From: Chiloscyllium plagiosum
Lineage: Eukaryota
Assembly (NCBI RefSeq): GCF_004010195.1
Contig: NC_057734.1
Location: forward strand, 9,464,938 to 9,528,937
Direction of reading: 5' to 3'
DNA length: 64,000 nucleotides
Shown: in pieces, positions 781 to 58,499 of the stretch
How positions within the stretch are numbered: the first letter of the stretch is position 1
Layout: each line of letters opens with the position of its first letter
Program-made: the position numbers and the translations under genes
Notes under the pieces: model-generated
Database searches by the model: none
What the model was told of the DNA's origin: nothing
Seen by the model: only the letters and a program-made list of their open reading frames with translations

Positions 781-1060
781 CTTCTTTAGCCACTGCCCAA
801 ATGTATTAGTTCACTTATCCAGCAGCCCCTATGTCTGCTGCTGCTGATTCATGAGATAAGTATTTAATATTCAAATTTACCTTGCCAGCAGGCTCCCGCT
901 GCTGATAAAAGTTTGCTCTCTTCTGACTGTCCATACTCCAAATGTGATAATTCTTTGAAAGAACCAACATGGGTAGTTTGGCTTCCTTTTGTGTTGAAGG
1001 TTCAAATTATACAGTTGGTAGAATGTTTACGCATCACTAATTCACAATATGTTCCTGCAG

Positions 1061-1237
1061 GTTTTGATTCCTCGGATGACAGGCCAGCCACTTGATGAGA
1101 CAAAGCTGAACAAAGCTCTGGCTGAATTGAATGGAACCTTGGACATTTTAGAATCAATGTTTCTGAAGGACCAGGCCTTCCTCTGTGGTGATGAGATGAC
1201 ATTAGCTGATCTATTGGCCATCTGTGAACTGATGCAG
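1061..1237 (+). CDS. gstt2: glutathione S-transferase theta, copy A, exon 4
   Basis: ttcctgcag| acceptor, 177 nt VLIPRMTGQP...FLCGDEMTLADLLAICELMQ, |gtgagg donor; size and motif fit GSTT exon 4; exons 1-3 would lie upstream of the window; symbol refers to the fish gstt2-like lineage (recall). Confidence 0.9.
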
Positions 1238-2051
1238 GTGAGGTTCAAGAATGTTATACACACTGTCATCACCTAATTTTGTTGACGTTGATAAAACCAT
1301 AACAAAATTTGCAAAAGGAGAAATGGATAAAATGGTCCAAAGATGAAGAGTACATTTTTACCAATCCTTCCATTGTTTTGGAATTGAACTTCCACTGCAT
1401 ATCAACTTTGTCTCCTCTTACCATTTTAAGAGACAGACTCCATCCGTTGTGCCCACAATTTGTCATCAAAACTTGAACTACTGTACTGCACATTGATAAA
1501 TATTCTGGGTACATGTGAAGGGAAAAGGAAATAATTAGAGAAATCCTAGATCTATTCCTCCATTTTTTAAAAATGAATCTGAATTTAGGTCTGACCAGAA
1601 GCAGTATACCTTACAGATGTGACTGCAGCTGAAAGCATTAATTCCATTTTATTTATCCTTTAACTTTACATTAAGCAGAGATCATCCACTCCTGGCTAAG
1701 GATAAAATCAAACCTAGGTTCTACTGCTGGCACTTAGTGGTATGTTAGCAACCATCATGATGCTGCTGCACATGAGTTCTTAGATTCGCTGAATAACTCC
1801 ACGCTTTGAAAATTAAGGCTCAGCTACTGGAAGCCAAGTAAAAGTAATTTAAAAAGTCAAACTGATCTAAACAGGATCAGTTCTTTGTAAATATAAACTA
1901 AATCAATCTATGATTTACAGCTTTTGCTTCAAGCCTTTTCACAGTAATGCAGATGGGTAAAGAAATCAGGTCTTTCTACTCCTGTACTAAACTGACTGAA
2001 AATGTAACACAGATTAATTTACATTTTTGTTTTGTTTTTATATATATTCAG

Positions 2052-2192
2052 CCACTTGGAGCAAATCGTGACATATTGAAAGATCGTCCAAAATTGATCG
2101 CCTGGCGTAACAGAGTGCAGTCGGCACTGGGGAAAACATTTGATGATGTGCATTTTTTGCTTTATCAACTAAGAGATAAAGCTAGGCTTTAA
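2052..2192 (+). CDS. gstt2: glutathione S-transferase theta, copy A, exon 5 (last)
   Basis: tattcag| acceptor, PLGANRDILKDRPKLIAWRNRVQSALGKTFDDVHFLLYQLRDKARL then TAA. Confidence 0.9.
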   Translation, partial: PLGANRDILKDRPKLIAWRNRVQSALGKTFDDVHFLLYQLRDKARL

Positions 2193-2389
2193 AAGCTAAA
2201 CCATGTGGTATTTCAGAACAATAGATTCCTGCAAATTAGTCTGCTTAATGGGACTAAAATTAACCTATCAAAACCACATGCCTTTAAAGCATCATTTGAT
2301 TAGTAAAACATGGTCCAAGTAATATTAATAACCATACAATCAGTTAATGACAGCAAATCACTAATTTGGGGTAAAATTATACCAAGGCT

Positions 2390-5300
2390 CTGGGTCTGTG
2401 GATTGTGAAGGAGCAAAAATGGTCTTTAATAGAGTGATATGTATTTCTTGTCAGATGTGGGAGTTTAAAGAGAGTTTAAGGGTTACTGCTGATTATTTCT
2501 GCCATAAATGCTGCTGGTTGCAAATCTTATCAGATCGAATGGATCGGTTGGAGAGACAGTTAGAAGCAATGTGGAATTTGCAACAGCAACAGTATGTGAT
2601 GGATGGCAGTTATAGGAAGGGGTGAAAGTCTCAGATACAGTCATATAGATAGGTTAACTCCAGGAAAGGTAAGAGAGGAGGCAGCTAGTGCAGGAGTCTT
2701 TTGTGGATATACCCATTTTGAAGAGGTATGCTGTTTTGGAAAATGTTGGGGGTGATGGATTCTCAGGGGAACATAGCATGAACAGCCAAGTTTCTGGTAT
2801 GGAGACTGGCTCTAATGCAACGAGGGGTAAGTCGGGTTCCAAGAGATCAATTGTGTTAGGGGATTCTCTGGTTCGAGGTACAGACAGACGTTTCTGTGGC
2901 CAGTAGCGATAAAGCAGAATGGTGTGTTGTTTCCCTGGTGCCAGGATCAAGGATGTCTCAGAGAGGGTGCAGTATGTTCTCACGGGGGAGAGGGGCCAGC
3001 AAGAGGTCATTGTCCACATTGGAACCAACGACATAGGAAGGAAAAAGGTTGAGATTCTGAAAGGAAATTACAGAGAGTTAGGAAGAAATCTAAAAAGGAG
3101 GTCCTCGAGAGTAGTAATATCTGGATTACTCCCAGTGCTACGAGCTAGTGAGGGCAGGAATAGGAGAATAGAGCAGATGAATGCATGGCTGAGGAGCTGG
3201 TGTATGGGAGAAGGATTCACATTTTTGGATGATTGGAATCCCTTTTGGGGTNNNNNNNNNNNNNNNNNNNNNNNNNNATAGTGAGGAAAGAGATCAATCT
3301 GAGACTGGTAGAGTTGAGAACAGAAGTGAGTCAAACAGTCAGGGCAGGCAGGGACAAGGTAGGACTAATAAATTAAATTGCATTTATTTCAATGCAAGGG
3401 GCCTAACAGGGAAGGCAGATGAACTCAGGGGCATGGCTAGGAACAGGGGCTGGGATATCATAGCAATTACAGAAACATGGCTCAGGGATGGGTAGGACTG
3501 GCAGCTTAATGTTCCAGGATACAAGTGCTACAGGAAGGATAGAAAGGGAGGCAAGTGAGGAAAAGGAGTGGTATTTTTGATAAGGGATAGCATTACAGCT
3601 GTGCTGAGGGAGGATGTTCCTGGAAATACATCCAGGGAAGTTATTTGGGTGGAACTGAGAAATAAGAAAGGGATGACCACTTTATTGGGATTGTATTATA
3701 GACCCCCCAATAGTCAGAGGGAAATTGAGAAACAAACTTGTAAGGAGATCTCAGCTATCTGTAAGAATAATAGGGTAGTTATGGTAGGGGATTTTAACTT
3801 TCCCAACATCGACTGGGACTGACATAGTGTTAAGGGCTTAGATGGAGAGGAATTTGTTAAGTGCATACAAGACAATTTTCTGATTCGGTATGTAGATGTA
3901 CCTACTAGAGAAGGTGCAAAACTTGACTTACTCTTGGGAAATAAGGCAGGGCAGGTGACTGAGGTGTCAGTGGGGGAGCACTTTGGGGCCAGTGACCATA
4001 ATTCTATTTGCTTTAAAATAGTGATGGAAAAGGATAGACCAGATCTAAAAGTTGAAGTTCTAAATTGGAGAAAGGCCAATTTTGATGGTATTAGGCAAGA
4101 ACTTTTGAAAGCTGATTGGGGGCAGATGTTCACTGGTAAAGGGACAACTGGAAAATGGAAAGCCCTCAGAAATGAGATAATGAGAATCCAGGGAAAGTAT
4201 ATTCCTGTTAGGGTGAAAGGAAAGGGTGGTGGGTATAGGGAATGCTGGATGACTAAAGAAATTGAGGGTTTGGTTAAGAAAAAGAAGGAAGCATATGTAT
4301 GGTATAGACAGGATAGATCAAGTGAATCCTTAGAAGAGTATAAAGGAAGTAGGAGCATACTTAAGAGTGAAATCAGGAGGGCAAAAAGTGGACATGAGAT
4401 AGCTCTAGAACTCTGTGGAAAGCGAGAGAAGTGATTGCTGGGCCTCTTGCTGAGATATTTGTATCATCGATAGTCACAGGTGAGGTGCCAGAAGACTGGA
4501 GGTTGGCTAACGTGGTGCCACTGTTAAGAAGGGTGGTAAGGACAAGCCAGGGAACTATAGACCAGTGAGCCTGAAGTTGGTGGTGGGCAAGTTGTTGGAG
4601 GGAATCCTAAGGGACAGGGTGTACATGTGTTTGGAAAGGCAAGGACTGATTAGGGATAGTCAACATGGTTTTATGCATGGGAAATCATGTCTCACAAACT
4701 TGATTGAGTTTTTTGAGGAAGTAACAACGAGGATTGATGAGAGCAGAGCAGTAGATGTGATCTATATGATCTTCAGTAAGGCATTCCACAGGTTCCCCAT
4801 GGAAGACTGGTTAGCAAGGTTAGATTTCATGGAATACAGGGAGAACTAGACATTTGGATACAGAACTGGCTCAAAGGTAGAAGACAGAGGGTTGTGGTGG
4901 AGGGTTGTTTTTCAGACTGGAGGCCTGTAACCAGTCGAGTTCCACAAGGATCGGTGCCGGGTCCTCTACTTTTTGTCATTTACATAAATGATTTTGATGC
5001 GAGCATAAGAGGTACAGTTAGTAAGTTTGCTGGTGACACCAAAATTGGAGGTGTAGTGGAGAGCAAAGAGGGTTACCTCAGATTACAACAGGATCTGGAC
5101 CAGATGGGCCAATGGGCTGAGAAGTGGCAGATGGAGTTTAATTCAGATAAATGCAAGGTGCTGCGTTTTGGGGAAAGATGTTGTGAAACCTGAAGGGGTT
5201 CAGAAAAGATTTACAAGTATGTTGCCAGGGTTGGAGGATTTGAGCTATAGGGAGAGGCTGAACAAGCTGGGGCTGTTTTCCCTGGAGCGTCAGAGGCTGA

Positions 5301-5680
5301 GGAGTGACCTTATAGAGGTTTACAAAATTATGAGGGGCATGGATCGGGTAAATAAGCAAAGTCTTTTCCCTGGGGTCGGGGAGTCCAGAACTAGAGGGCA
5401 TAGGTTAAGGGTGAGAGGTGAAAGATATAAAAGTGACCTATGGGGCAACTTTTTCACACAGAGAGTGGTACTTGTTTGGAATGAGCTGCCAGAGGAAGTG
5501 GTGGAGGATGGTACAACTGCAACATTTAAGAGGCATTTGGATGGGTATATGAATAGGAAGGGTTTGGAAGGTATTGGGCCGGGTGCTGGCGCGTGGAACT
5601 AGACTGGGTTGGGATATCTGATTGGCATGGAGGGGTTGGACCGAAGGGTCTGTTTCCATGCTGTACATCCCAATGACTCC
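2390..5680 (+). mobile_element. long, internally deleted and frameshifted CR1 LINE (ORF1 zinc finger + SGNH esterase; ORF2 APE endonuclease + RT)
   Basis: ORF1 motifs CISC..CHKC, GDSLVRG, CFPGARI, VHIGTND; ORF2 motifs YFNARGL, ITETWL, YYRPP, GDFNFP, SDH, PQGSVPGP, FAGD; CR1 tail at 5680; absent from the paralogous site (accaaggct-aaact-atacattcaa, ~18997-19020); N gap 3252-3277. Confidence 0.95.
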
Positions 5681-7222
5681 ATACATTCAAACCCACCTTG
5701 CAAAAGGAACTTAGGAGTGTTGTTGGAAGCAATCTTAATTTCTCAGACATAATCACTGTAGCAATACAGTCCCTCCATAAATAAGATCTTCATCTGCTCC
5801 AGGCACCAAGCAGAGTAGCAATTTCCACATGGCATCACCAAGTGGACTATGCCACTTTACTATAGATTAGAAGTCCCATGGTTTTGTCATCTCCAAGTGG
5901 GCACTGGGAGTGTCCTTGGGATTTAACAAACTCTGATTCATATACTTTAAAGTACAAAAGAACTGCTAATCTTCCTCTTTTCTGTCTAGCTGAGGCAAGT
6001 GAATATAAAGCCTCTGATCCAAATAGAAAAAATCCAAGTCTCATAACATTTTTTGTTAATTCAGATCCCATCAATGACCATTGCACTAGTCAATCAGCGA
6101 CAACCTGGAAACATCTGGTACTTGTCTAACATCAGAACTCTTGCTTCCTCCCACTCCTCCCTCTACGACAAATCGCCCCCAAGTGGACAACAGACCACTG
6201 GACATTTGGGCTCTGTTCCATGCAAGCATCACAGTGCTCTTCACTGAAAACAGGCACACCACACGTTAAACAGAGGTCAAGGACTACAACAGAGTCTGAA
6301 TTTCTGGCACATGGTTCAGACAGGATAAAATTCTCAGTAAGAACTTCTCAGTAGCTTCTGGTCAAATGTTGAGAGTTCCTCCACTCTATATCACAGACAT
6401 CTTTCAGTGTTTCGTTAAGACATTAAAGTTGAACAGCTTGTAATAAGCCAGGGATTTTAATGCCACCATGATTGGGCAGGCTCATTAGTCACCGAAAATC
6501 AACAATATTGAATCCAACTCCTCGGTGAGAAGACCAACAGTGCCAAATAATAGTGATCTAAAGTATTCATCTTTTGAAGTATTCTAATCCCGATCCATCC
6601 TATGCAACCTTTAAAACATCCTCTCATTGAATCAATTAGCTGTAGTAATGAAGATTTTAAATGGCTTATCACGTGGTATAATGTGAAATTATAATGTGAT
6701 ATCAAGAAACAACCTGATCAAAGTACTTGCAGCAATTAATTTAATATGAGGTAAACAGATTCCCCCAATCAATTCATAATAAAATGTATAATTCTTGTAA
6801 ATCATTTATTGAATTTTGTACAAAATATTTTGTCAGCTTTGATTTATAAAACAAGTTTTTATGTAAACCATCTTCCCTAACTATACAGTGAATGAAAGTC
6901 ATCCAGAACCACAGATGAAATTAGCTGCTGAGACACTTGAAGGTTCACTGATGCCCAATTATAAGGTTTGTCAATATCAAAAATTCCTTGTTAGCAGGGG
7001 TGACAGGCAGTCAGGTTAATGAATTACAGAAGCAAGAGCATAGCACTAAATATTTAGTGAACCTCTATTCTGAGCTTGTTCACAGAATACAGTGTAAACC
7101 AAAGTCGAAGGCTGGAAGTAGACATGCCCATTTTGGTGAACCATTGGATCCAATAACCACGAATACAAACAGAACCAAGAGGTACATATCCGAATATAAA
7201 TGGAAAAGCCTTGATTTGTACT

Positions 7223-8333: not shown

Positions 8334-8457
8334 ATGGCTTCTCGGCTCCCCTTACGAGTGTACTTCGACCTGTTGTCCCAGCCCTCCAGGGCCGTCTTGA
8401 TCTTCCTCAGACGCACCGGAATCCCGCATGTAGAAAAACCCGTGGCCCTCCGGAAGG
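8334..8457 (+). CDS. gstt2: glutathione S-transferase theta, copy B, exon 1
   Basis: ccATGG start; MASRLPLRVYFDLLSQPSRAVLIFLRRTGIPHVEKPVALRKG with the theta-class catalytic Ser motif LLSQPSRAV; donor G|gtaag; CpG-rich context, ATTGG at 8231. Confidence 0.93.
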
Positions 8458-11542: not shown

Positions 11543-11630
11543 GTGAACAGAGGAGCCCAGAATTCACGAAACTCAATCCAAATCAGAAAGTGCCAGTTAT
11601 TGTGGACAATGGATTTGTTCTGACTGAGAG
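11543..11630 (+). CDS. gstt2: GSTT copy B exon 2
   Basis: aacag| 88 nt (G)EQRSPEFTKLNPNQKVPVIVDNGFVLTE(S) |gtgagg; KVP cis-Pro and LTES G-site motifs; phases match neighbouring exons. Confidence 0.95.
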
Positions 11631-12761: not shown

Positions 12762-12912
12762 CGTTGCTATTCTGAAGTACCTGGCAACAAAGTATGATAT
12801 CCCTCAATTCTGGTACCCTGTAGACTCAATGCAGAGGGCAAAGGTGGATGAGTACATGGCATGGCAGCACGCTACTGTGAGATATCATGCATCAAAAGTC
12901 TTCATCCTGGAG
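12762..12912 (+). CDS. gstt2: GSTT copy B exon 3
   Basis: ttttcag| 151 nt VAILKYLATKYDIPQFWYPVDSMQRAKVDEYMAWQHATVRYHASKVFILE |gtatgg. Confidence 0.95.
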
Positions 12913-14140
12913 GTATGGACTAAAAAAATGTTTCTAATCAACGTATTTTGCTACCATGATATTTGGCTCCAGCCACATACTGTGGAGCAAAGAGCATGTG
13001 TTTTTAGGCTGTAGGTATACTTTCACCACACGGACTACAAGGATTCAAGAAGGCAACTTAGTACCATCTTTGACCATAAGACATAGGAGCAGAAAATAGG
13101 CCATTTGGACCATCATGTCTGCTCTGCCATTCAATCAGAGCTGATAGGTTTTCAAAGTCAAAAAGTATGGTGCTGTAAAAGCACAGCCAGTCAGGCAGCA
13201 TCCGAGGTGCAGGAGAGTCGACATTTAGAATATAAGCTCTTCATTCCTGCTCCTCAGATTCTGCCTGACCTGCTGTGCTTTTCCAGCACCACACTTTTTC
13301 ACTCTGATCTCTAGCATCTGCAGTCCTCACTTCCTCCTGATGGGAGTTGAAAACCTTTTTTCCCACTTTCTTACCATCACCTTTGATCCCCTTGGCAGTC
13401 AAGAACTTATTGATCTCGGTTTTAAAATATACTTGATGACCTGGCCTCCACAGCCTTCTGTGGCAGTGAATTCCACAGATTCACCACACTTTGGCTAAAG
13501 AAGTTTCTCTTTATCTCCAGTCTAAAGGGTTTTCCCTTTATTCCAAAACTATGCCCTCAGGTTCTTGTCTCTTCCGCCGCTTGGAACATCTTCCCAATGT
13601 CCATTCTGTCCAGGCTGTACTTCTAAACTCCTCAGAGTATAGGCCCAGAGTCCTCAAACGTTCCTCATGTGTTAGGTCTTTCATTCCTGCAGTCATTCTC
13701 CTGAACCTCCTCTGGACCCGCTCCGGGGCCAGTACATGGTTCCTGAATTGCTCATAATACCAGAAATGTGGTCTGACCAGAATTTTATAAAGCCTCAGAA
13801 GTGTGTCCCTACTTTTATATTCTAGTCCCCTTGAGATGAATGACAACATTGTATTTGCCTTCCTAACTACCAACTCAACATACAAGTTTACCTTAGGAGA
13901 AACCTGGACTTGGACTCTTAAGTCCCTTTGCACTTCAGATTTCTGAATTTTCTCCCCCTTGAGAAAACAGTCCACGCCTCTGTCCTTCCTAGCAAAGTGC
14001 ATGATCTCACACTTGCTCCATTTGTGTTCCCCTCACTTTTATTTCATTTACTACTTCATTGCCCGCACTCCTAACCTGTCTAAATCTTTCTGAAACCTCC
14101 CTACCTCCCCAATACTACCTGTCCCTCCACCTATTTTTGT

Positions 14141-15068
14141 ATAGAACATAGAACATTACAGCACAGCACAGTACAGGCCCTTCAGCCCTGGATGTTGCGA
14201 CGACCTATGGGACCTATCTGAAGCCTATCTATCCAACACTATTCCATTTTCATCCATGTGTTTGTCCAATGACCATTTAAATGCTGTTAAAGTTGGCAAG
14301 TCTACTATTGTAGTAGGTTCCATGCCCCTACTAATCTGAGTAAAGAAACTACCTCTGACATCTGTCCTATATCTATCACCCCTCAATTTAAAGTGAAGTC
14401 CCCTCGTGCTATCTATTACCATCCAAGGAAAAAAGCTCTCAGTGTCCACCCTGATTATATGTCTCAATTAAGTCACCTCTCAACCTTCTTCTCTCCAACG
14501 AAAAACAGCCACAAGTCCCTCAGCCTTTCCTCATAAGACCTTCCCTCCATACCAGGCAACATCTTAGTAAAATCTCCTCTGTACCCTTTCTAAAGCTTCC
14601 ACATCCCTCCTGTAATGTGGAGACCAGAACTGTATGCAATACTCCAAGTGCAGCCACACCAGAGATTTGTACAGCTGCAGCATGACCTCTTGGATCCAAA
14701 ATGCAATAAAAGCTAACACACAGTATGCCTTCTTAACAACCCTATCAACCTGGGTGGCAACATTCAGGGATCTATGTACATGGACACAAAGATCTCTCTG
14801 CTCATCTACACTACCAAGAATCTTATCATTAGCCCAGTACTTTTTATTCTTGTTGCTTCTTCCAAAGTGAATCACCTCACACTTTTCGGCATTAAAATCA
14901 ATTTTCCACCTCTCAGCCCAGCTTATCTATGTTCCTGCGCAACCTGCAACATCTTTCAGTCCTATCCACAACTCCACTGACCTTAGTGTCATCCAGTAAT
15001 TTACTAACCCATCATTGGATGCCTTCATCCAGGTCATTTATAAAAATGACAAACAGCAGTGGCCTCAA
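14141..15068 (-). mobile_element. second CR1 subfamily nested in the first
   Basis: (atagaac)n tail at 14141; ORFs 14225-14467 and 14564-14875 (LEYCIQFWSPHYRRDVEALERVQRRF); host sequence ttgt|atcatctgcaaac rejoins across it. Confidence 0.85.
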
Positions 15069-15453
15069 ATCATCTGCAAACTTAGCCAGAATGCCCTCAG
15101 TTCTTTCACCCAGATCATTAAAGTATAAAGTGAAAAGTTGTGGTACCAACACCTCTAGTCACCAGCTTCCAAGCTGAGAATGACCCTTTTATCCCCACTC
15201 TCTGCCTTCTGCCAGACAGCCAATCTTCTATCCATGCTAGGACCTTGCCCCTAACACCATGGGTCCTTACCGGACTCCTGTGTGGCACCTTATCAAAGGC
15301 CTTCTGGAAATCCAGGTAACTTACATCCATTGGCTCTTCTTTGTCTAACCTGCTCATTATCTGCTAAAAGAATTCTAACAGATTTGTCAGGCATGACCTC
15401 CCCTTAATGAAACCATGCTGACTTTGGCCTATTTTACTATACACTTAAAAGTA

Positions 15454-17557: not shown

Positions 17558-17670
17558 CTGCTCTTTGAAAGAGCTAACATGGGTAGTTTGGCTTCCTTTT
17601 GTGTTGAAGGTTCAAATTATACAGTTGGTAGAATGTTTAAGCATCACTAATTCACAATATGTTCCTGCAG

Positions 17671-17847
17671 GTTTTGATTCCTCGGATGACAGGCCAGCCA
17701 CTTGATGAGACAAAGCTGAACAAAGCTCTGGCTGAATTGAATGGAACCTTGGACATTTTAGAATCAATGTTTCTGAAGGACCAGGCCTTCCTCTGTGGTG
17801 ATGAGATGACATTAGCTGATCTATTGGCCATCTGTGAACTGATGCAG
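17671..17847 (+). CDS. gstt2: GSTT copy B exon 4
   Basis: 177 nt, same translation as 1061-1237; AG/GT boundaries. Confidence 0.95.
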
Positions 17848-18661
17848 GTGAGGTTCAAGAATGTTATACACACTGTCATCACCTAATTTTGTTGACGTTG
17901 ATAAAACCATAACAAAATTTGAAAAGGAGAAATGGATAAAATGGTCCAAAGATGAAGAGTACATTTCTACCAATCCTTCCATTGTTTTGGAATTGAACTT
18001 CCACTGCATATCAACTTTGTCTCCTCTTACCATTTTAAGAGACAGACTCCATCCGTTGTGCCCACAATTTGTCATCAAAACTTGAACTACTGTACTGCAC
18101 ATTGATAAATATTCTGGGTACATATGAAGGGAAAAGGAAATAATTAGAGAAATCCTAGATCTATTCCTCCATTTTTTTAAAACTGAATCTGAATTTAGGT
18201 CCGACCAGAAGCAGTATACCTTACAGATGTGACTGCAGCTGAAAGCATTAATTCCATTTTATTTATCCTTTAACTTTACATTAAGCAGAGATCATCCACT
18301 CCTGGCTAAGTATAAAATCAAACCTAGGTTCTACTGCTGGCACTTAGTGGTATGTTGGCAACCATCATGATGCTGCTGCACATGAGTTCTTAGATTCACT
18401 GAATAACTCCACACTTTGAAAATTAAGGCTCAGCTACTGGAAGCCAAGTAAAAGTAATTAAAAAAGTCAAACTGATCTAAACAGGATCAGTCCTTTGTAA
18501 ATATAAACTAAATCAATCTATGATTTACAGCTTTTGCTTCAAGCCTTTTCACAGTAATGCAGGTGGGAAAAGAAATCAGGTCTTTCTACTCCTGTACTAA
18601 ACTGACTGAAAATGTAACACTGATTAATTTACATTTTTGTTTTGTTTTTATATATATTCAG

Positions 18662-18802
18662 CCACTTGGAGCTAATCGTGACATATTGAAAGATCGTCCA
18701 AAACTGATCGCCTGGCGTAACAGAGTGCAGTCGGCACTGGGGAAAACATTTGATGATGTGCATTCTTTCCTTTATCAACTAAGAGATAAAGCTAGGCTTT
18801 AA
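18662..18802 (+). CDS. gstt2: GSTT copy B exon 5 (last); spliced CDS 681 nt = 226 aa
   Basis: PLGANRDILKDRPKLIAWRNRVQSALGKTFDDVHSFLYQLRDKARL then TAA; exon sizes 124+88+151+177+141 keep frame. Confidence 0.95.
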   Translation, partial: PLGANRDILKDRPKLIAWRNRVQSALGKTFDDVHSFLYQLRDKARL

Positions 18803-18906
18803 AAGCTAAACCATGTGGAATTTCTAAACAATAGATTCCTGTAAATTAGTCTACTTAATGGTTTAAAATTAACTGTCAAAACCACATGCCTTTAAAGTAA
18901 TTGATT

Positions 18907-18912
18907 AATAAA
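18907..18912 (+). terminator. candidate polyadenylation signal of GSTT copy B
   Basis: AATAAA about 105 nt after the stop; another AATAAA near 19103. Confidence 0.55.
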
Positions 18913-20182
18913 ACATACTACTTAATAGTTCCAGTAACTTTAATAGCCATAGTAATTTGCTTTCATTAATTAATTGTAAGTTTGGAGTCAAATTAGACCA
19001 AGGCTAAACTATACATTCAAAACTACCTTACAAAAGCAATTTAGGAGTGGTGTTGCAAGCAGTCTTCATTTCTCAGATATAATCACTGTAAAACAGTGCC
19101 TCAATAAATAAGGTTTCAGTTGTTTAGAGTTTTATGCAGTTTCTATTCTAGGCACCAAGCATAGTAGCAATTTCCACAATGCACTTGGTGATGCCTTGTG
19201 CCACTTCCATAGATTATAAGTCCCATGGTTTTGTCATCTCCAACAGGACATCGGGAGGGTCCTTGGGATTTAACAAACTCGATCCATGTACTTTAAAAGC
19301 ACAAAAGAACTGTTAATTTTCCTCTTTTCTGTCTAGCTGAGGCAAGTGCACATGAAGCCTGTGATCCAAATAGGAAAAATCAGAGTCTAGTGACAATTAT
19401 TCTTAACTCAGATCCCATCAATGCACCACTATGCCAGTCGAGCTGCAACAAACAGAAAAGCTGCATATATCTGGTATTTGTCTATCATGAAGGCGTCATT
19501 TCTCAACATCAAGCCTCAGAAAACGACAACATCAGAATTCCTGCTTCCTCCCACTAACACAAATCATCCCCAAGTGGGCAACAGACCACTGGGCATTTGG
19601 GCTCTGTTCCAAACATCACAGTAAATACCACAACGCATCACTGCAAAGAGGCACACCACATGTTAATCAGTGGCCCAGGTCTACAGAGTCTGAATTGCTG
19701 TCACATAGCTCAGACAGGATAAAATGCTGAATATGGCATTCTAAGTAACAACTTTACAGTAGCTTCTGGTCAAAAGTTGGGAGTTCCTTTGTCCTGTATC
19801 ATAGACATCTTTCAGTGTTTTGTTAAGACATTAAAGTTGAATATCTTGTAATATGCCAGACATTTTGTTGCTATCGTGACTAGCAGGCTTGTTCTTGAGC
19901 AAAAAATTAAGACTGAACCCAACTCCTAGGTGAGACAGACCAGTAATATCAAATAACAGTGATCTGAAGTATTCATCTTCTGAAGTATTCTAATCCTGGT
20001 CCATCCTTTACAACCTTTAAAACGTACTCTCATTGAATCAATTAACTGTATTAATGAAGATTTAAAATGGTTTATCACATGGCATAATTTGTTTCCTCTA
20101 AAATATAATCTGAGCAGTGTACTTGCAGGAAACCAGTTTCTCTCAAATAATTTGTAATAAGATGTATAATTCTTTTAAATCA

Positions 20183-20188
20183 TTTATT
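20183..20188 (-). terminator. candidate distal polyadenylation signal of CHEK2
   Basis: minus strand reads aaaatattttgtacaaaattcAATAAAtg, an AU-rich context with upstream TGTA, at the end of a repeat-poor 3.6-kb stretch after the CHEK2 stop; other AATAAA candidates exist nearer the stop. Confidence 0.45.
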
Positions 20189-20842
20189 GAATTTTGTACA
20201 AAATATTTTGTCAACCTTGATTTATAAAACAAGTTTTCACATAAACCATCTTCCCTAACTATACAGTGAGTGAAAGTCATCCGGAACCACAGATAAAATT
20301 AGCTGCTGAGACATTTGAAAGTTCACTGATGCCCAATTATAATATTTGTCAATATCAAAAATTCCTTGTTAGCAGAGGTGGCAGGCAATAATGTTAATGA
20401 ATTACAGAAACAAGAGCATAATAATGAATATTTAATTAACCTCTATTCTGAGCTTGTCCACAGAATACAATGTAAACCAAAGTCAAAAGGCTGGGAATAG
20501 AGAGATGCCCATTCTGACTACTCATTAGATCCAACAACAATAAATCGAAACAGATTCAATAGGTCTGTATCCAAATACAAATAGAAATGCCCTGAAGTGT
20601 ACTCAAACCCTCTTCATTAAGACAGTCCAAAGTCATGATCGTAAATTTTACCTACAGTTCCCCTGCTTCACTGGATTGAATCTAGCACCATCACCTCTAA
20701 ATGCTATAATAAATTCAAATCTTCCTGGTGCTGGTCAGAGGTAGTTAGGAACAGATTTGTAAACTTTAACTGCCAAGCTCCTTCATTATCATCTATAAAA
20801 TGGCCAAAATATTCATCATGAGGATAATTGTAGCTGCTTCCA

Positions 20843-33633: not shown

Positions 33634-33720
33634 CTTAATGAGGCAGTTCTCTTCATTGTTCGCAAGCAGTACATTCTCTGGTTTGAGATCTCGGTGGGTG
33701 ATGTTATTTTCATGAAGGTA
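33634..33720 (-). CDS. CHEK2: CHEK2 coding exon 9 (catalytic loop)
   Basis: 87 nt [29 protein letters not shown]. Confidence 0.97.
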
Positions 33721-48845: not shown

Positions 48846-49521
48846 CTGCAGCATTAAAAATATTGTAAAATTAGAAATTAATCCAAATTACATATTGAAG
48901 GATAAGACAAACTGCACATAAACCTAAGCTACAGAAGGGACTTGTCTTCCTCACACTGAAGATTATACCTGCTGACAATATAACAATTTGCAAGTGCAGT
49001 GCTGGGACTCCTTGTCTACAAGTTTGAGATGAAAATTTATAAAATTGGATAGCTCTCTACTTCAATATATGAAGAGCTAAACTGAAATAAGAAATTGCAG
49101 AGTTTATAAATGGCACTCAGACTTATTAGTAATAAAATCAATTCAAGAAGAATATACTGTCCATCCTTCATTTTAAATGGTGTAGTTCCACAACAAAAAA
49201 AACTGAGTATTATAGCTCAGAGCTTGTTTACACTACTGTGGGAAAAGATCTGCCACCCTGCCTACTCACAGTACGCCCACACAGAATGTAGGAAATCAAA
49301 CTTGGCCAAACTGTACCAGAAGCACCCAGAATGCCTCAGCATTGACCAACAAGCTGACAAGTGGAACCAGACAGAACCATAGTCACTCGCAGACAAGGGA
49401 ATACAGTTCCCAAAACACACTAACAATAAGCTTCCTGGACCCGGTCAGCACAGCTGTCCCAAAGCCCAAGGGAAGTCTGAAAACACAGGAATACCAAAGC
49501 CACACAAAGGACAGGTCAGAG

Positions 49522-50405
49522 CTTGAGAGAAGATTTGTAGCTCGGGTGCTCGTTGTGGTTCTGTTCACCGAGCTGGGAATTTGTGTTGCAGACGTTTCGT
49601 CCCCTGGCTTGGTAACATCCTCAATGCTTGGGAGCCTCCTGTGAAGCGTTTCTGTGATCTTTCCTCCGGCATTTATAGTGATTTGTATCTGCCGCTTCTG
49701 GTTGTCAGTTCCAGCTGTCCGCTGCAGTGGTCGGTATATTGGGTCCAGATCGATGTGCTTATTGATAGAATCTGTGGATGAGTGCCATGCCTCTAGGAAT
49801 TCCCTGGCTGTTCTCGGTTTGGCTTGTCCTATAATAGTACTGTTGTCCCAGTCGAACTCATGTGACTTGTCATCTGAGTGTGTGGCTACTAAGGACAGCT
49901 GGTGTGTCGTTTCGTGGCTAGTTGGTATTCATGGATGCGGATCATTAGCTGTCTTCCAGTTTTTCCTATGTAGTGTTTTGTACACTACATTGATTTTGCT
50001 CATGCTGGGTATCGGGTCCTTCGTCCTGGCGAGTTGTTGTCTGAGAGTGGCTGTTGGTTTGTGTGCTGTTAGGAGTTCTAGTGGTCGCAGTAGTCTGGCT
50101 GTCAGTTCGGAAATGCTCTTTATGTATGGTAGTGTGGCTAGTCCTTTGGGTTGCGGCATGTCCTCGTTCCGTTGTCTTTCCCTTAGGCATCTGTTGATGA
50201 AATTGTGCGGGTATCCGTTTTTGGCGAATACATTGTATAGATGTTCTTCTTCCTCTTTTTGCAGTTCTGGTGTACTGCAGTGTGTTGAGGCCCTTTTGAA
50301 TAGTGTCTTGATGCAACTTCTTTGGGTGTGTTGGGGTGGTTGCTTTCGTAGTTCAGGACTTGGTCTGTGTGTGTGGCTTTCCTGTATACCTTTGTGGTGT
50401 ATCCT
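49522..50405 (-). mobile_element. Penelope-like (Poseidon-type) retroelement, truncated
   Basis: minus strand YRKATHTDQVLNYESNHP...NGYPHNFIN...LPYIKSISELTARLLRP...HKPTATLRQQL..KDP..NVVYK = PLE RT thumb/linker leading into GIY-YIG. Confidence 0.92.
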
Positions 50406-50997
50406 CAGCTCAAGGAAGAAAACCCTTTATCCACCTGTACAGACGGTCAGTTCTGTGTCAGCCTCATCAATTTCTCTTCTAGCGATATCACTTGTAACAA
50501 ACAGCTTATCAATTTCACCCAATCTGTCTTGTGTGGTCTCTGCTTTATTGCGCTAATTTCTCCAACAGCAACATTAATTTATTCAGTCAATACATTTTCT
50601 ACTTGATGCTAGATTCGTTTTTTTTCAAATTAGGTGGGGAATAGCATTGAACAACTGGAGTTGCTTCCCTCATCACGATCCAGGTAACTTTACTAAAAGT
50701 GTAGTCAGTTCAGTTGAAATGCTTCTTCCTCCAAAAAGGTACCCCATGCAAACTTAGATCACATAGATGAATGATCATTTTGGGAAAGTAGAGAAGAATC
50801 CAAGAGTTCAGCAAATCTTTGAAAAAGGAAATATTAAACTGCTGCTAATAGGAATATCCAAGCACTGCAGAAAATAATGATCTCAACTGGCTTCTTTTCC
50901 AGTTGGTTACTGTCTGGTGTTTTCCTAACAATTGTACAGTTGTCGGTAAGAATATTACAATATTCTAGAGCTTGAATGAAAGATAACTTATACTTAC

Positions 50998-54246: not shown

Positions 54247-54371
54247 TCTGATAATTCTGCAGTGTTTCTTGCTGTACGATTTGAAGTGCTCCTTCCTCTT
54301 CAACACTGGATGATCAAAACAATAGTGACATGATTTATCCCTTCCGAACCAGTACTCGTTATCTAAGCAAT
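54247..54371 (-). CDS. CHEK2: CHEK2 coding exon 2 (FHA)
   Basis: 125 nt (D)[41 protein letters not shown]; FHA GR and SxxH motifs. Confidence 0.96.
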
Positions 54372-57557: not shown

Positions 57558-57780
57558 CAAAGTTCCAAAATCCTTTTTCTAGCGCCCAGAGGCGTCCCCA
57601 AGGTTTAGGCAATTCTTCCACTTCTGGAATGGTAGCAAGATCCTGGGTAGGGTTGGAATCCAGGATGACAGTGCCTGCTGAGGATAGGCTGCTCGATCCA
57701 GTGCCGCTGGTGGACGAGGCGGACTGGGACTGACTCTGGGACTGTGATTGGGATGTGCTGGTAACGGTCTCCTTCGACAT
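57558..57780 (-). CDS. CHEK2: CHEK2 first coding exon (SQ/TQ cluster); spliced CDS 1563 nt = 520 aa
   Basis: MSKETVTSTSQSQSQSQSQSASS...NPTQDLATIPEVEELPKPWGRLWALEKGFWNF, donor G|gtgagt; TQ equivalent to human Thr68; all 14 exons splice in frame. Confidence 0.95.
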
Positions 57781-58499
57781 TGTAGGTTTGAGACCAAACA
57801 AAAATGATGATAACAATAGAAGAGCTTGAGGAGGTGGGGGAGGCGAGAATGAACCACTCTCCGCAATTCTCGGCGACGTGGTGAATTAAAACAAAAGATG
57901 TTAAACCCCACTTTTTAAAAAAAAAAGAGCAGTGGACATAAACTATGGGAGATTTTCGGTGAAAATGGTCATTGTTTATTCTGCTGCATTAAAAAGAGTT
58001 GGTGCTAAATCTCAACCCATCGCAACTCGGTACTGAGTTTGCTTCCCATCGGCAAAACAAAACAAAAACCTAACTGAATGGAATCAAACGCCAATTAGGC
58101 ACATATAAAAGGTCCAGGTGTGGACAAAAAGTGTAAATCCACATCAATGGCAATAGATGAAAATAATATAAGGGAAGGCTGACAAGGTCCCCAGAAAGTG
58201 TCTTTCTCCAAGAGACCAACTCAGTCTCAACCTCTTCAGGGCAACGTGTACAATTAACCCTATCTTTCCGCAGTATCTAACACACAAACATCTTATGTCC
58301 TTTACAGATATAGAAAGAGATTTCGCTTTAAAGCTGTTTACATCCCTCCCATTCTCCCGCCCGAAACCCAGACATGCTGCAACCACGCCTTTGACTATCA
58401 CCTTTGACCTCCCTCCCAACTGCTACCCACGGCGCGAGCAAAATATTTTTATCATTCTATCATATCTTTGCGGGCAAACACAAACCACTCCGACATTAT

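What the first reader, a model, noticed from the sequence alone, without database searches (positions are those of the whole stretch)
18662..18802. Theta GST with a shortened C-terminus ending in a PTS1-like signal (-ARL)
Seen: both copies end ...YQLRDKARL*, and the last exon encodes only 46 aa. Established: [SAC][KRH][LM] at the C-terminus is the peroxisomal targeting signal 1, human GSTK1 uses ARL, and mammalian GSTT1/T2 are cytosolic with a longer tail covering the active site. Inference: this is a peroxisomal, more open-site theta GST of the fish gstt2-type lineage. I recall zebrafish Gstt2 also ending in an AKL-like tripeptide, which needs verification. That would point to an old, little-studied vertebrate peroxisomal detoxification enzyme, here duplicated.
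Basis: partly seen in the sequence, partly recalled or inferred. Interest (0 to 1): 0.7.

Follow-up and report, generated by a model that had tools for sequence, protein, structure and literature searches.

The report
Fish glutathione transferase with peroxisome tag
This is the shark version of a fish detoxifying enzyme (gstt2) that ends in a peroxisome address tag kept in nearly all fish relatives examined, so it likely works inside peroxisomes, where mammals have only one known glutathione enzyme; the second 'copy' next to it is just a fragment.

Summary
The ending is real. Exon 5 (18662-18802) encodes 46 aa ending in ARL-stop, and RNA reads confirm it as the spliced, polyadenylated last exon of a 226-aa theta GST, the shark orthologue of zebrafish gstt2. 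A strict PTS1 ends 136 of 148 listed fish relatives, swapping among AKL, ARL, SKL and SRL. The long-tailed vertebrate GSTT1/T2/T4 clade, including this shark's probable paralogue, has none. The zebrafish PTS1 prediction is already in a 2022 supplementary table, undiscussed and untested there; peroxisomal theta GSTs are proven in Arabidopsis. Best reading: a peroxisomal glutathione transferase/lipid-hydroperoxide peroxidase (0.75). Localisation and substrate are untested.

The parts
8334..8457 (+). gstt2 exon 1 (ATG; catalytic Ser15 in the SQPS motif)
   Evidence: spliced product identical to P0002; Ser15 invariant in 54 aligned sequences
11543..11630 (+). gstt2 exon 2 (G-site, cis-Pro and ES motif region)
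12762..12912 (+). gstt2 exon 3
   Evidence: one match in the genome
17671..17847 (+). gstt2 exon 4
   Evidence: RNA joint to exon 5
18662..18802 (+). gstt2 exon 5, coding part: 46 aa plus stop
18791..18799 (+). codons of the C-terminal PTS1-type tripeptide ARL (stop at 18800-18802)
   Evidence: conservation
18907..18943 (+). main poly(A) signal AATAAA (18907) and cleavage sites 18933-18943
19103..19121 (+). second poly(A) signal and cleavage site
   Evidence: 7 reads
952..2311 (+). partial duplicate: end of intron 3, exon 4, intron 4, exon 5, start of the 3' UTR; 97% identical to 17562-18916
   Evidence: left edge bridged by contigs of two runs
1061..1237 (+). exon 4 of the partial duplicate, 0 differences in 177 bases
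2052..2192 (+). exon 5 of the partial duplicate, also ending ARL-stop; 4 base differences, 2 change residues; its AATAAA reads AGTAAA
   Evidence: RNA reads carry the intact gene's letters
5681..7222 (+). old duplicated 3' flank, 77% identical to 19011-20603
   Evidence: a 501-base piece has only these two matches in the genome

Best explanation
The window holds one intact, transcribed theta-class glutathione transferase gene (shark gstt2, 226 aa) whose protein ends in the tripeptide ARL and is likely imported into peroxisomes by PEX5, where it would use glutathione to reduce fatty-acid hydroperoxides and conjugate lipid-derived electrophiles. Shown: gene structure, last exon, poly(A) sites, theta fold with Ser15, conservation of the tag across sharks, rays, a chimaera, ray-finned fishes and lungfish, and its absence from the long-tailed vertebrate GSTT1/T2/T4 clade. 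Inferred: PEX5 binding and import (probably with a cytosolic pool), dimer formation, hydroperoxide substrates (by analogy with Arabidopsis GSTT1-3), a less covered substrate site because the last mammalian helix is missing, short-plus-PTS1 as the ancestral state of theta GSTs, and loss of this lineage in tetrapods. The upstream exon 4-5 segment is likely a non-functional remnant of an old tandem duplication that gene conversion keeps nearly identical.
For: 136 of 148 listed 90%-cluster representatives end in a strict PTS1 (AKL 85, ARL 33, SKL 14, SRL 2, AKM 1, ARM 1); 2 more end in PKL or PRM; positions -5 and -10 vary freely (2.8-2.9 bits) and the spacer varies by two residues, while -3/-2/-1 change only within the PTS1 alphabet; upstream residues are basic. 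None of 8 rows in the long-tailed vertebrate clade has a PTS1, nor has the last exon of this shark's probable GSTT1-type paralogue. The AU test rejects fish gstt2 plus rodent GSTT2 as one clade, p=0.0013. Among 67 full-length distant thetas, 15 end in a strict PTS1 and 51 end within 10 residues of the shark's end; named tagged ones include a crinoid, two flies, two beetles, a copepod cluster and an amoeba. The model (pLDDT 95) matches human GSTT1 at rmsd 1.2-1.3 over 217 columns. Zebrafish gstt2 is scored 'Targeted' by a PTS1 predictor in PMC8919083 Table S4. Arabidopsis GSTT1-3 are peroxisomal, active on fatty-acid hydroperoxides, and ARL directs GSTL2 partly to peroxisomes (PMC2657551). Duplicate: 22 differences in about 1240 bases up to the stop codon, then about 83% and 75-77% identity in the flank; a matching 109-aa partial model exists in Hemiscyllium and shares one species-specific residue with its own full gene.
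Against: No localisation or enzyme assay exists in my calls. In the model the last helix runs to residue 225, so the tripeptide sits at the helix end with a spacer two residues shorter than in most teleosts; it must fray to enter PEX5. PMC8919083 shows full-length proteins with predicted PTS1 that did not reach peroxisomes (CDC5L, KCTD5, rat LACTB2), and its table gives WoLF PSORT 'mito: 23' for zebrafish Gstt2. Ten of 148 relatives have no PTS1-like end, six through an added tail, so the tag is dispensable in some copies. The 148 are the best-listed hits only (26 of 26, 120 of 477, 120 of 287), and kin share endings. Deep nodes of both trees are weak and the trees are quick searches rooted at the midpoint, so the ancestral state is not proven. 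The tetrapod absence rests on a word-index search listing 120 of 287 hits. For the duplicate: its own exon-5 letters and right edge were seen in none of the four runs laid, conversion across species rests on one residue, and exons 1-3 could hide in an N gap.
Confidence: 0.75

Rival explanations
1. The enzyme is mainly cytosolic. The tripeptide is packed at the end of the last helix, is conserved partly for structure, and gives weak or conditional import only.
For: Helix 215-225 reaches the tripeptide in the model; some predicted PTS1 proteins fail as full-length proteins (PMC8919083); several cyprinid copies mask or lose the tag.
Against: Substitutions stay inside the PTS1 alphabet while the spacer length varies, which a packing role does not predict; plant thetas with such ends are imported (PMC2657551).
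Confidence: 0.18
2. The enzyme is mainly mitochondrial or dual-targeted like GSTK1, through its short basic N-terminal extension.
For: WoLF PSORT 'mito: 23' for zebrafish Gstt2 (PMC8919083 Table S4); Arg-containing 4-residue extension and pI 9.2.
Against: Strand 1 starts at residue 7, leaving no room for a presequence; the extension is missing in Heptranchias (222 aa) while the tag stays.
Confidence: 0.05
3. About the duplicate only: the upstream segment is the 3' half of a second complete, functional gene whose first three exons lie in an assembly gap; or it is an assembly artefact.
For: An N gap lies directly before the window; exon 4 is identical and the frame and ARL are intact; its exon-5 letters were not seen in other runs, which would fit an artefact.
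Against: Exons 1 and 3 are single-copy in the genome; similarity stops 110 bases before exon 4; RNA reads show the intact gene's letter at 29 of 29, 31 of 32 and 32 of 32 reads; its poly(A) signal is changed. Against an artefact: 75-77% flank identity, left edge bridged in runs X1 and X5, same partial model in Hemiscyllium.
Confidence: 0.15

Closest known systems
Zebrafish Gstt2 (NP_956815.2) and fish 'GST theta-2'
   Same: 65% identical, same clade, same short end, AKL; already predicted PTS1 'Targeted' in PMC8919083 Table S4
   Different: Shark spacer two residues shorter; SQPS instead of SQPC. The prediction is not discussed in that paper's main text (no 'theta' there) and Gstt2 is not among the constructs tested in the section read
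Human GSTT1-1 (2c3n, 2c3q) and GSTT2-2 (1ljr, 4mpf)
   Same: Theta fold, catalytic Ser, 46% and 40% identity, TM 0.92-0.93
   Different: Human proteins run 17 and 22 residues further; PMC2672168 states that this extension buries the substrate pocket; their clade has no PTS1 and is separate
Arabidopsis GSTT1-3
   Same: Theta class, C-terminal PTS1, basic pI; shown peroxisomal with fatty-acid hydroperoxide peroxidase activity (PMC2657551)
   Different: Plant lineage, SKI/SKM ends; no direct sequence comparison made here; activity of the fish enzyme untested
GSTK1 (kappa class)
   Same: PTS1-dependent peroxisomal GST; the only glutathione-dependent enzyme known in mammalian peroxisomes (PMC10565873, PMC10295636)
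   Different: Unrelated in sequence and structure (PMC10295636); zebrafish has it too (AKM), so fish would hold two peroxisomal GSTs

Membership tests
Cytosolic-type (canonical) GST, theta class | GST_N plus GST_C domains | tested here: met
   Pfam GST_N 58 bits, GST_C 39 bits, both over the cut-off
Cytosolic-type (canonical) GST, theta class | Catalytic Ser in SQP[CS]R; best matches are theta class | tested here: met
   Ser15 invariant; top PDB hits GSTT1 and GSTT2 by sequence and fold
Cytosolic-type (canonical) GST, theta class | Glutathione transferase or peroxidase activity, homodimer | not testable with these tools
   needs recombinant protein
Fish gstt2 orthologue group | One clade with zebrafish Gstt2 | tested here: met
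   17 rows at SH-aLRT 100; 8 rows at 88 in the smaller tree
Mammalian GSTT1/T2/T4 (long-tailed) group | C-terminal extension with a last helix over the active site | tested here: not met
   ends 17-22 residues earlier; last model helix 215-225
Mammalian GSTT2 | One clade with mammalian GSTT2 | tested here: not met
   AU p=0.0013; group chosen after seeing the tree
PTS1 peroxisomal matrix proteins | C-terminal [SAC][KRH][LM] on the real last exon, conserved in orthologues | tested here: met
PTS1 peroxisomal matrix proteins | Favourable upstream residues and an accessible end | tested here: inconclusive
   basic upstream residues, zebrafish end scored 'Targeted' in print; but helix to residue 225; no PTS1 predictor was run on the shark end
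PTS1 peroxisomal matrix proteins | PEX5-dependent import shown in cells | not testable with these tools
   needs microscopy or fractionation
Complete second gstt2 gene (upstream copy) | Exons 1-3 and transcripts | tested here: not met
   assembly gaps leave a small opening

The most novel reading that the evidence does not exclude
A peroxisomal theta GST is the ancestral eukaryotic state, kept from plants and amoebae through arthropods and echinoderms to sharks, teleosts and lungfish; early vertebrates split theta into a short peroxisomal lineage (fish gstt2) and a long-tailed cytosolic lineage (GSTT1/T2/T4), and tetrapods lost the peroxisomal one. Mammalian peroxisomes would then have a single glutathione enzyme by loss, and zebrafish would let one test what the lost enzyme did.
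Probability: 0.45. Interest if true: 0.65.

Novelty: new member of a known kind. Interest (0 to 1): 0.45.

Why it matters
Reviews list only GSTK1 as a glutathione-dependent enzyme of animal peroxisomes (rat column of Table 1 in PMC10565873), and PMC2657551 states that animal GSTTs have no obvious peroxisomal signal. A tag kept across all major fish groups would overturn that for non-tetrapod vertebrates. It bears on an open question, how peroxisomes clear lipid hydroperoxides, all the more since most teleosts lost the PTS1 of Prdx5 (PMC8919083). It is cheap to test in zebrafish. It also warns that fish gstt2, used as a toxicology marker, is not the counterpart of human GSTT2. The score is held down because the gene is annotated, the zebrafish prediction is in print, plant precedent exists, and the duplicate is a fragment.

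Tried and rejected
Two intact paralogues: rejected. A different last exon: none seen in run X21 for 17560-19300 (one library, about 2 in 100 of the run read; tissue not known to me). Tetrapod orthologues: none named among 120 listed hits to the lungfish protein; of 36 unnamed or aberrant proteins compared with 20 references, none pointed to a tetrapod gstt2; this is absence in a limited search. Synteny with tetrapods: the downstream neighbour is CHEK2-like, but the upstream neighbour was not identified in 100 kb; a CpG-rich patch there is a retroelement remnant. GSTK1 in this genome: the DSBA family search found nothing, uninformative for split exons. The careful tree did not finish; the quick tree is reported. 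The run search listed no indexed RNA holder. A Drosophila peroxisome inventory that I recall listing theta GSTs was not held and was not found, so arthropod predictions may be in print unseen. Ten literature searches found no localisation experiment on a fish Gstt2; subscription journals are not covered. PMC4202327, PMC3375281 and PMC11764017 (passages only) added nothing on fish gstt2. Earlier findings of this scan: none.

Full report
Observation. Window 18662-18802 (+) translates to 46 residues and a stop, ending in ARL. The same ending occurs at 2052-2192. Five GT-AG exons (8334-8457, 11543-11630, 12762-12912, 17671-17847, 18662-18802) give a 226-aa protein (the first try had exon 5 off by one base). 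It is identical to P0002, which NCBI names GST theta-2 or theta-1-like in two Chiloscyllium bamboo sharks. Raw RNA reads of run X21 (about 2 in 100 of the run read) join exon 4 to exon 5 in 11 reads and end in poly(A) at 18933-18943 and 19121; run X22 laid nothing. So ARL is the real end of the expressed protein in that library.

The second copy. It is not a whole gene. Only 952-2311 matches 17562-18916 (97%). Exons 1 and 3 have one match each in the genome, and exons 1-3 give no hit in the 100 kb upstream, which has N gaps, one directly before the window. NCBI's model of it (P0003, 109 aa) has only the GST_C domain. RNA reads over its exon 5 carry the intact gene's letters at 29 of 29, 31 of 32 and 32 of 32 reads, and its poly(A) signal reads AGTAAA. 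Identity is about 98% from 110 bases before exon 4 to the stop codon (22 differences), about 83% just after, and 75-77% in a flank that occurs only at these two places. Hemiscyllium has the same 109-aa partial model on a contig of the same length as its full gene, and each species' fragment shares its own gene's residue at position 138. I infer an old tandem duplication whose exon 4-5 core is homogenised by gene conversion. The left edge is bridged by contigs of runs X1 and X5, but the fragment's own exon-5 letters and right edge were seen in none of four runs, so its fine structure is less sure.

The tag. Of the 148 cluster representatives listed by three searches (26 of 26, 120 of 477, 120 of 287 hits), 136 end in a strict PTS1 and 2 in PKL or PRM; 6 carry an added tail, 3 end short and 1 runs into an intron. 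The set includes this gene and its fragment. It spans sharks, rays, a chimaera, bichir, sturgeon, gar, bowfin, teleosts and lungfish. The last three positions change only within the PTS1 alphabet, whereas positions -5 and -10 are free and the spacer is 5 or 7 residues. Chance per protein is about 0.004. As an internal control, this genome holds a GSTT1-type gene 40 Mb away on the same contig; its probable last exon, on a small separate contig, has a long tail and no PTS1 (the link between the two pieces is inferred).

Lineage. Fish gstt2 (17 rows, SH-aLRT 100, all tagged) and the long-tailed vertebrate thetas (8 rows, 99, none tagged; several are aberrant models) are separate clades (names). 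The AU test rejects fish gstt2 plus rodent GSTT2 as one clade (p=0.0013; group named after the first tree). Among 149 distant representatives, 67 were full length and 82 were dropped (10 of these tagged). Of the 67, 15 end in a strict PTS1 and 51 end within 10 residues of the shark's end. Named tagged ones are a crinoid, two flies, two beetles, a copepod cluster and an amoeba; a bryozoan ends in PKL and a tunicate in NKL. The simplest reading is that short and often tagged is old and the mammalian tail is an addition; deep support is weak, so this is inference. No tetrapod appears among the 120 listed hits to the lungfish protein or among 36 unnamed or aberrant proteins checked; loss in tetrapods is likely but not shown.

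Structure. The model (54-row alignment, pLDDT 95) overlays human GSTT1 at rmsd 1.2-1.3. Ser15 and Arg111 are invariant. The protein stops 17 residues before human GSTT1 and 22 before GSTT2. PMC2672168 (passages) says that the mammalian extension buries the substrate pocket, so a more open site is plausible, but I could not measure it. The last helix reaches residue 225, so the tag must fray to bind PEX5.

Mechanism. Shown: an expressed Ser-type theta GST with a conserved PTS1-type end. Inferred from established PTS1 biology: PEX5 binds the end and imports the folded protein. Inferred from Arabidopsis GSTT1-3, which are peroxisomal and reduce fatty-acid hydroperoxides (PMC2657551, passages): it clears lipid hydroperoxides and electrophiles made during beta-oxidation. 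I put this at 0.75 for localisation (in whole or part); the substrate is less sure. Rivals are a mainly cytosolic enzyme (0.18) and mitochondrial or dual targeting (0.05).

What is known. PMC8919083 (passages, section 27, supplement search) lists zebrafish gstt2 in Table S4 as 'Targeted', conserved in goldfish and not in human; its main text has no 'theta' and names only Gstk1. PMC10565873 and PMC10295636 (passages) give GSTK1 as the only glutathione-dependent enzyme of mammalian peroxisomes. PMC2657551 says that animal GSTTs have no such signal. Ten searches found no localisation test of a fish Gstt2; subscription papers, including fish GST surveys and a Drosophila inventory that I only recall, were not seen, and supplements of papers other than PMC8919083 were not searched.

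Verdict. The tag is real, expressed and strongly conserved; the duplication is a fragment; the gene and the zebrafish prediction are known. New here are the breadth of conservation, the split from mammalian GSTT2, the probable ancestral state and the apparent tetrapod loss. New member of a known kind (peroxisomal theta GST), interest 0.45.

Noticed in passing
window 952-2311 versus 17562-18916: The high-identity tract starts 110 bases before exon 4 and decays within 20 bases after the stop codon. The fragment carries two residue changes (S215F, F216L), so conversion from it could alter the last helix of the working gene.
   Followed up: partly
window about 29900-57900, minus strand: CHEK2-like gene (SQ/TQ-rich first coding exon near 57600-57800, FHA exons near 54300 and 53200, kinase exons near 33700, 31200 and 29900), tail to tail with gstt2; named from motifs, not from a family hit.
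   Followed up: partly
proteins P0024, P0027, P0325, P0328, P0339 (cyprinids) and P0148: Some gstt2 copies extend 6-9 residues beyond or over the AKL, masking the tag: possible relocation to the cytosol after duplication.
   Followed up: no
window 18673: Synonymous T/A difference in 9 of 15 minus-strand RNA reads of run X21; the A is also the fragment's letter and that of a related species, so it may be an allele shared by conversion.
   Followed up: no
G000:C25:49291926-49307330, G000:C21499, G000:C15934: GSTT1-type gene with exons 1-3 on C25, a second slightly different exon 3 on a 1.2-kb contig and a last exon on a 1.1-kb contig: perhaps two GSTT1 paralogues or alleles, poorly assembled.
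   Followed up: partly
window 2900-5700, 13500-15100, 49200-50550; L007 2177-3136: Decayed LINE-type reverse-transcriptase fragments and Penelope-like remnants; identified by eye from the reading frames.
   Followed up: no
protein P0038 (older zebrafish record NP_956815.1): A 242-aa version of zebrafish Gstt2 with a different end and no PTS1; databases using it would miss the tag.
   Followed up: no
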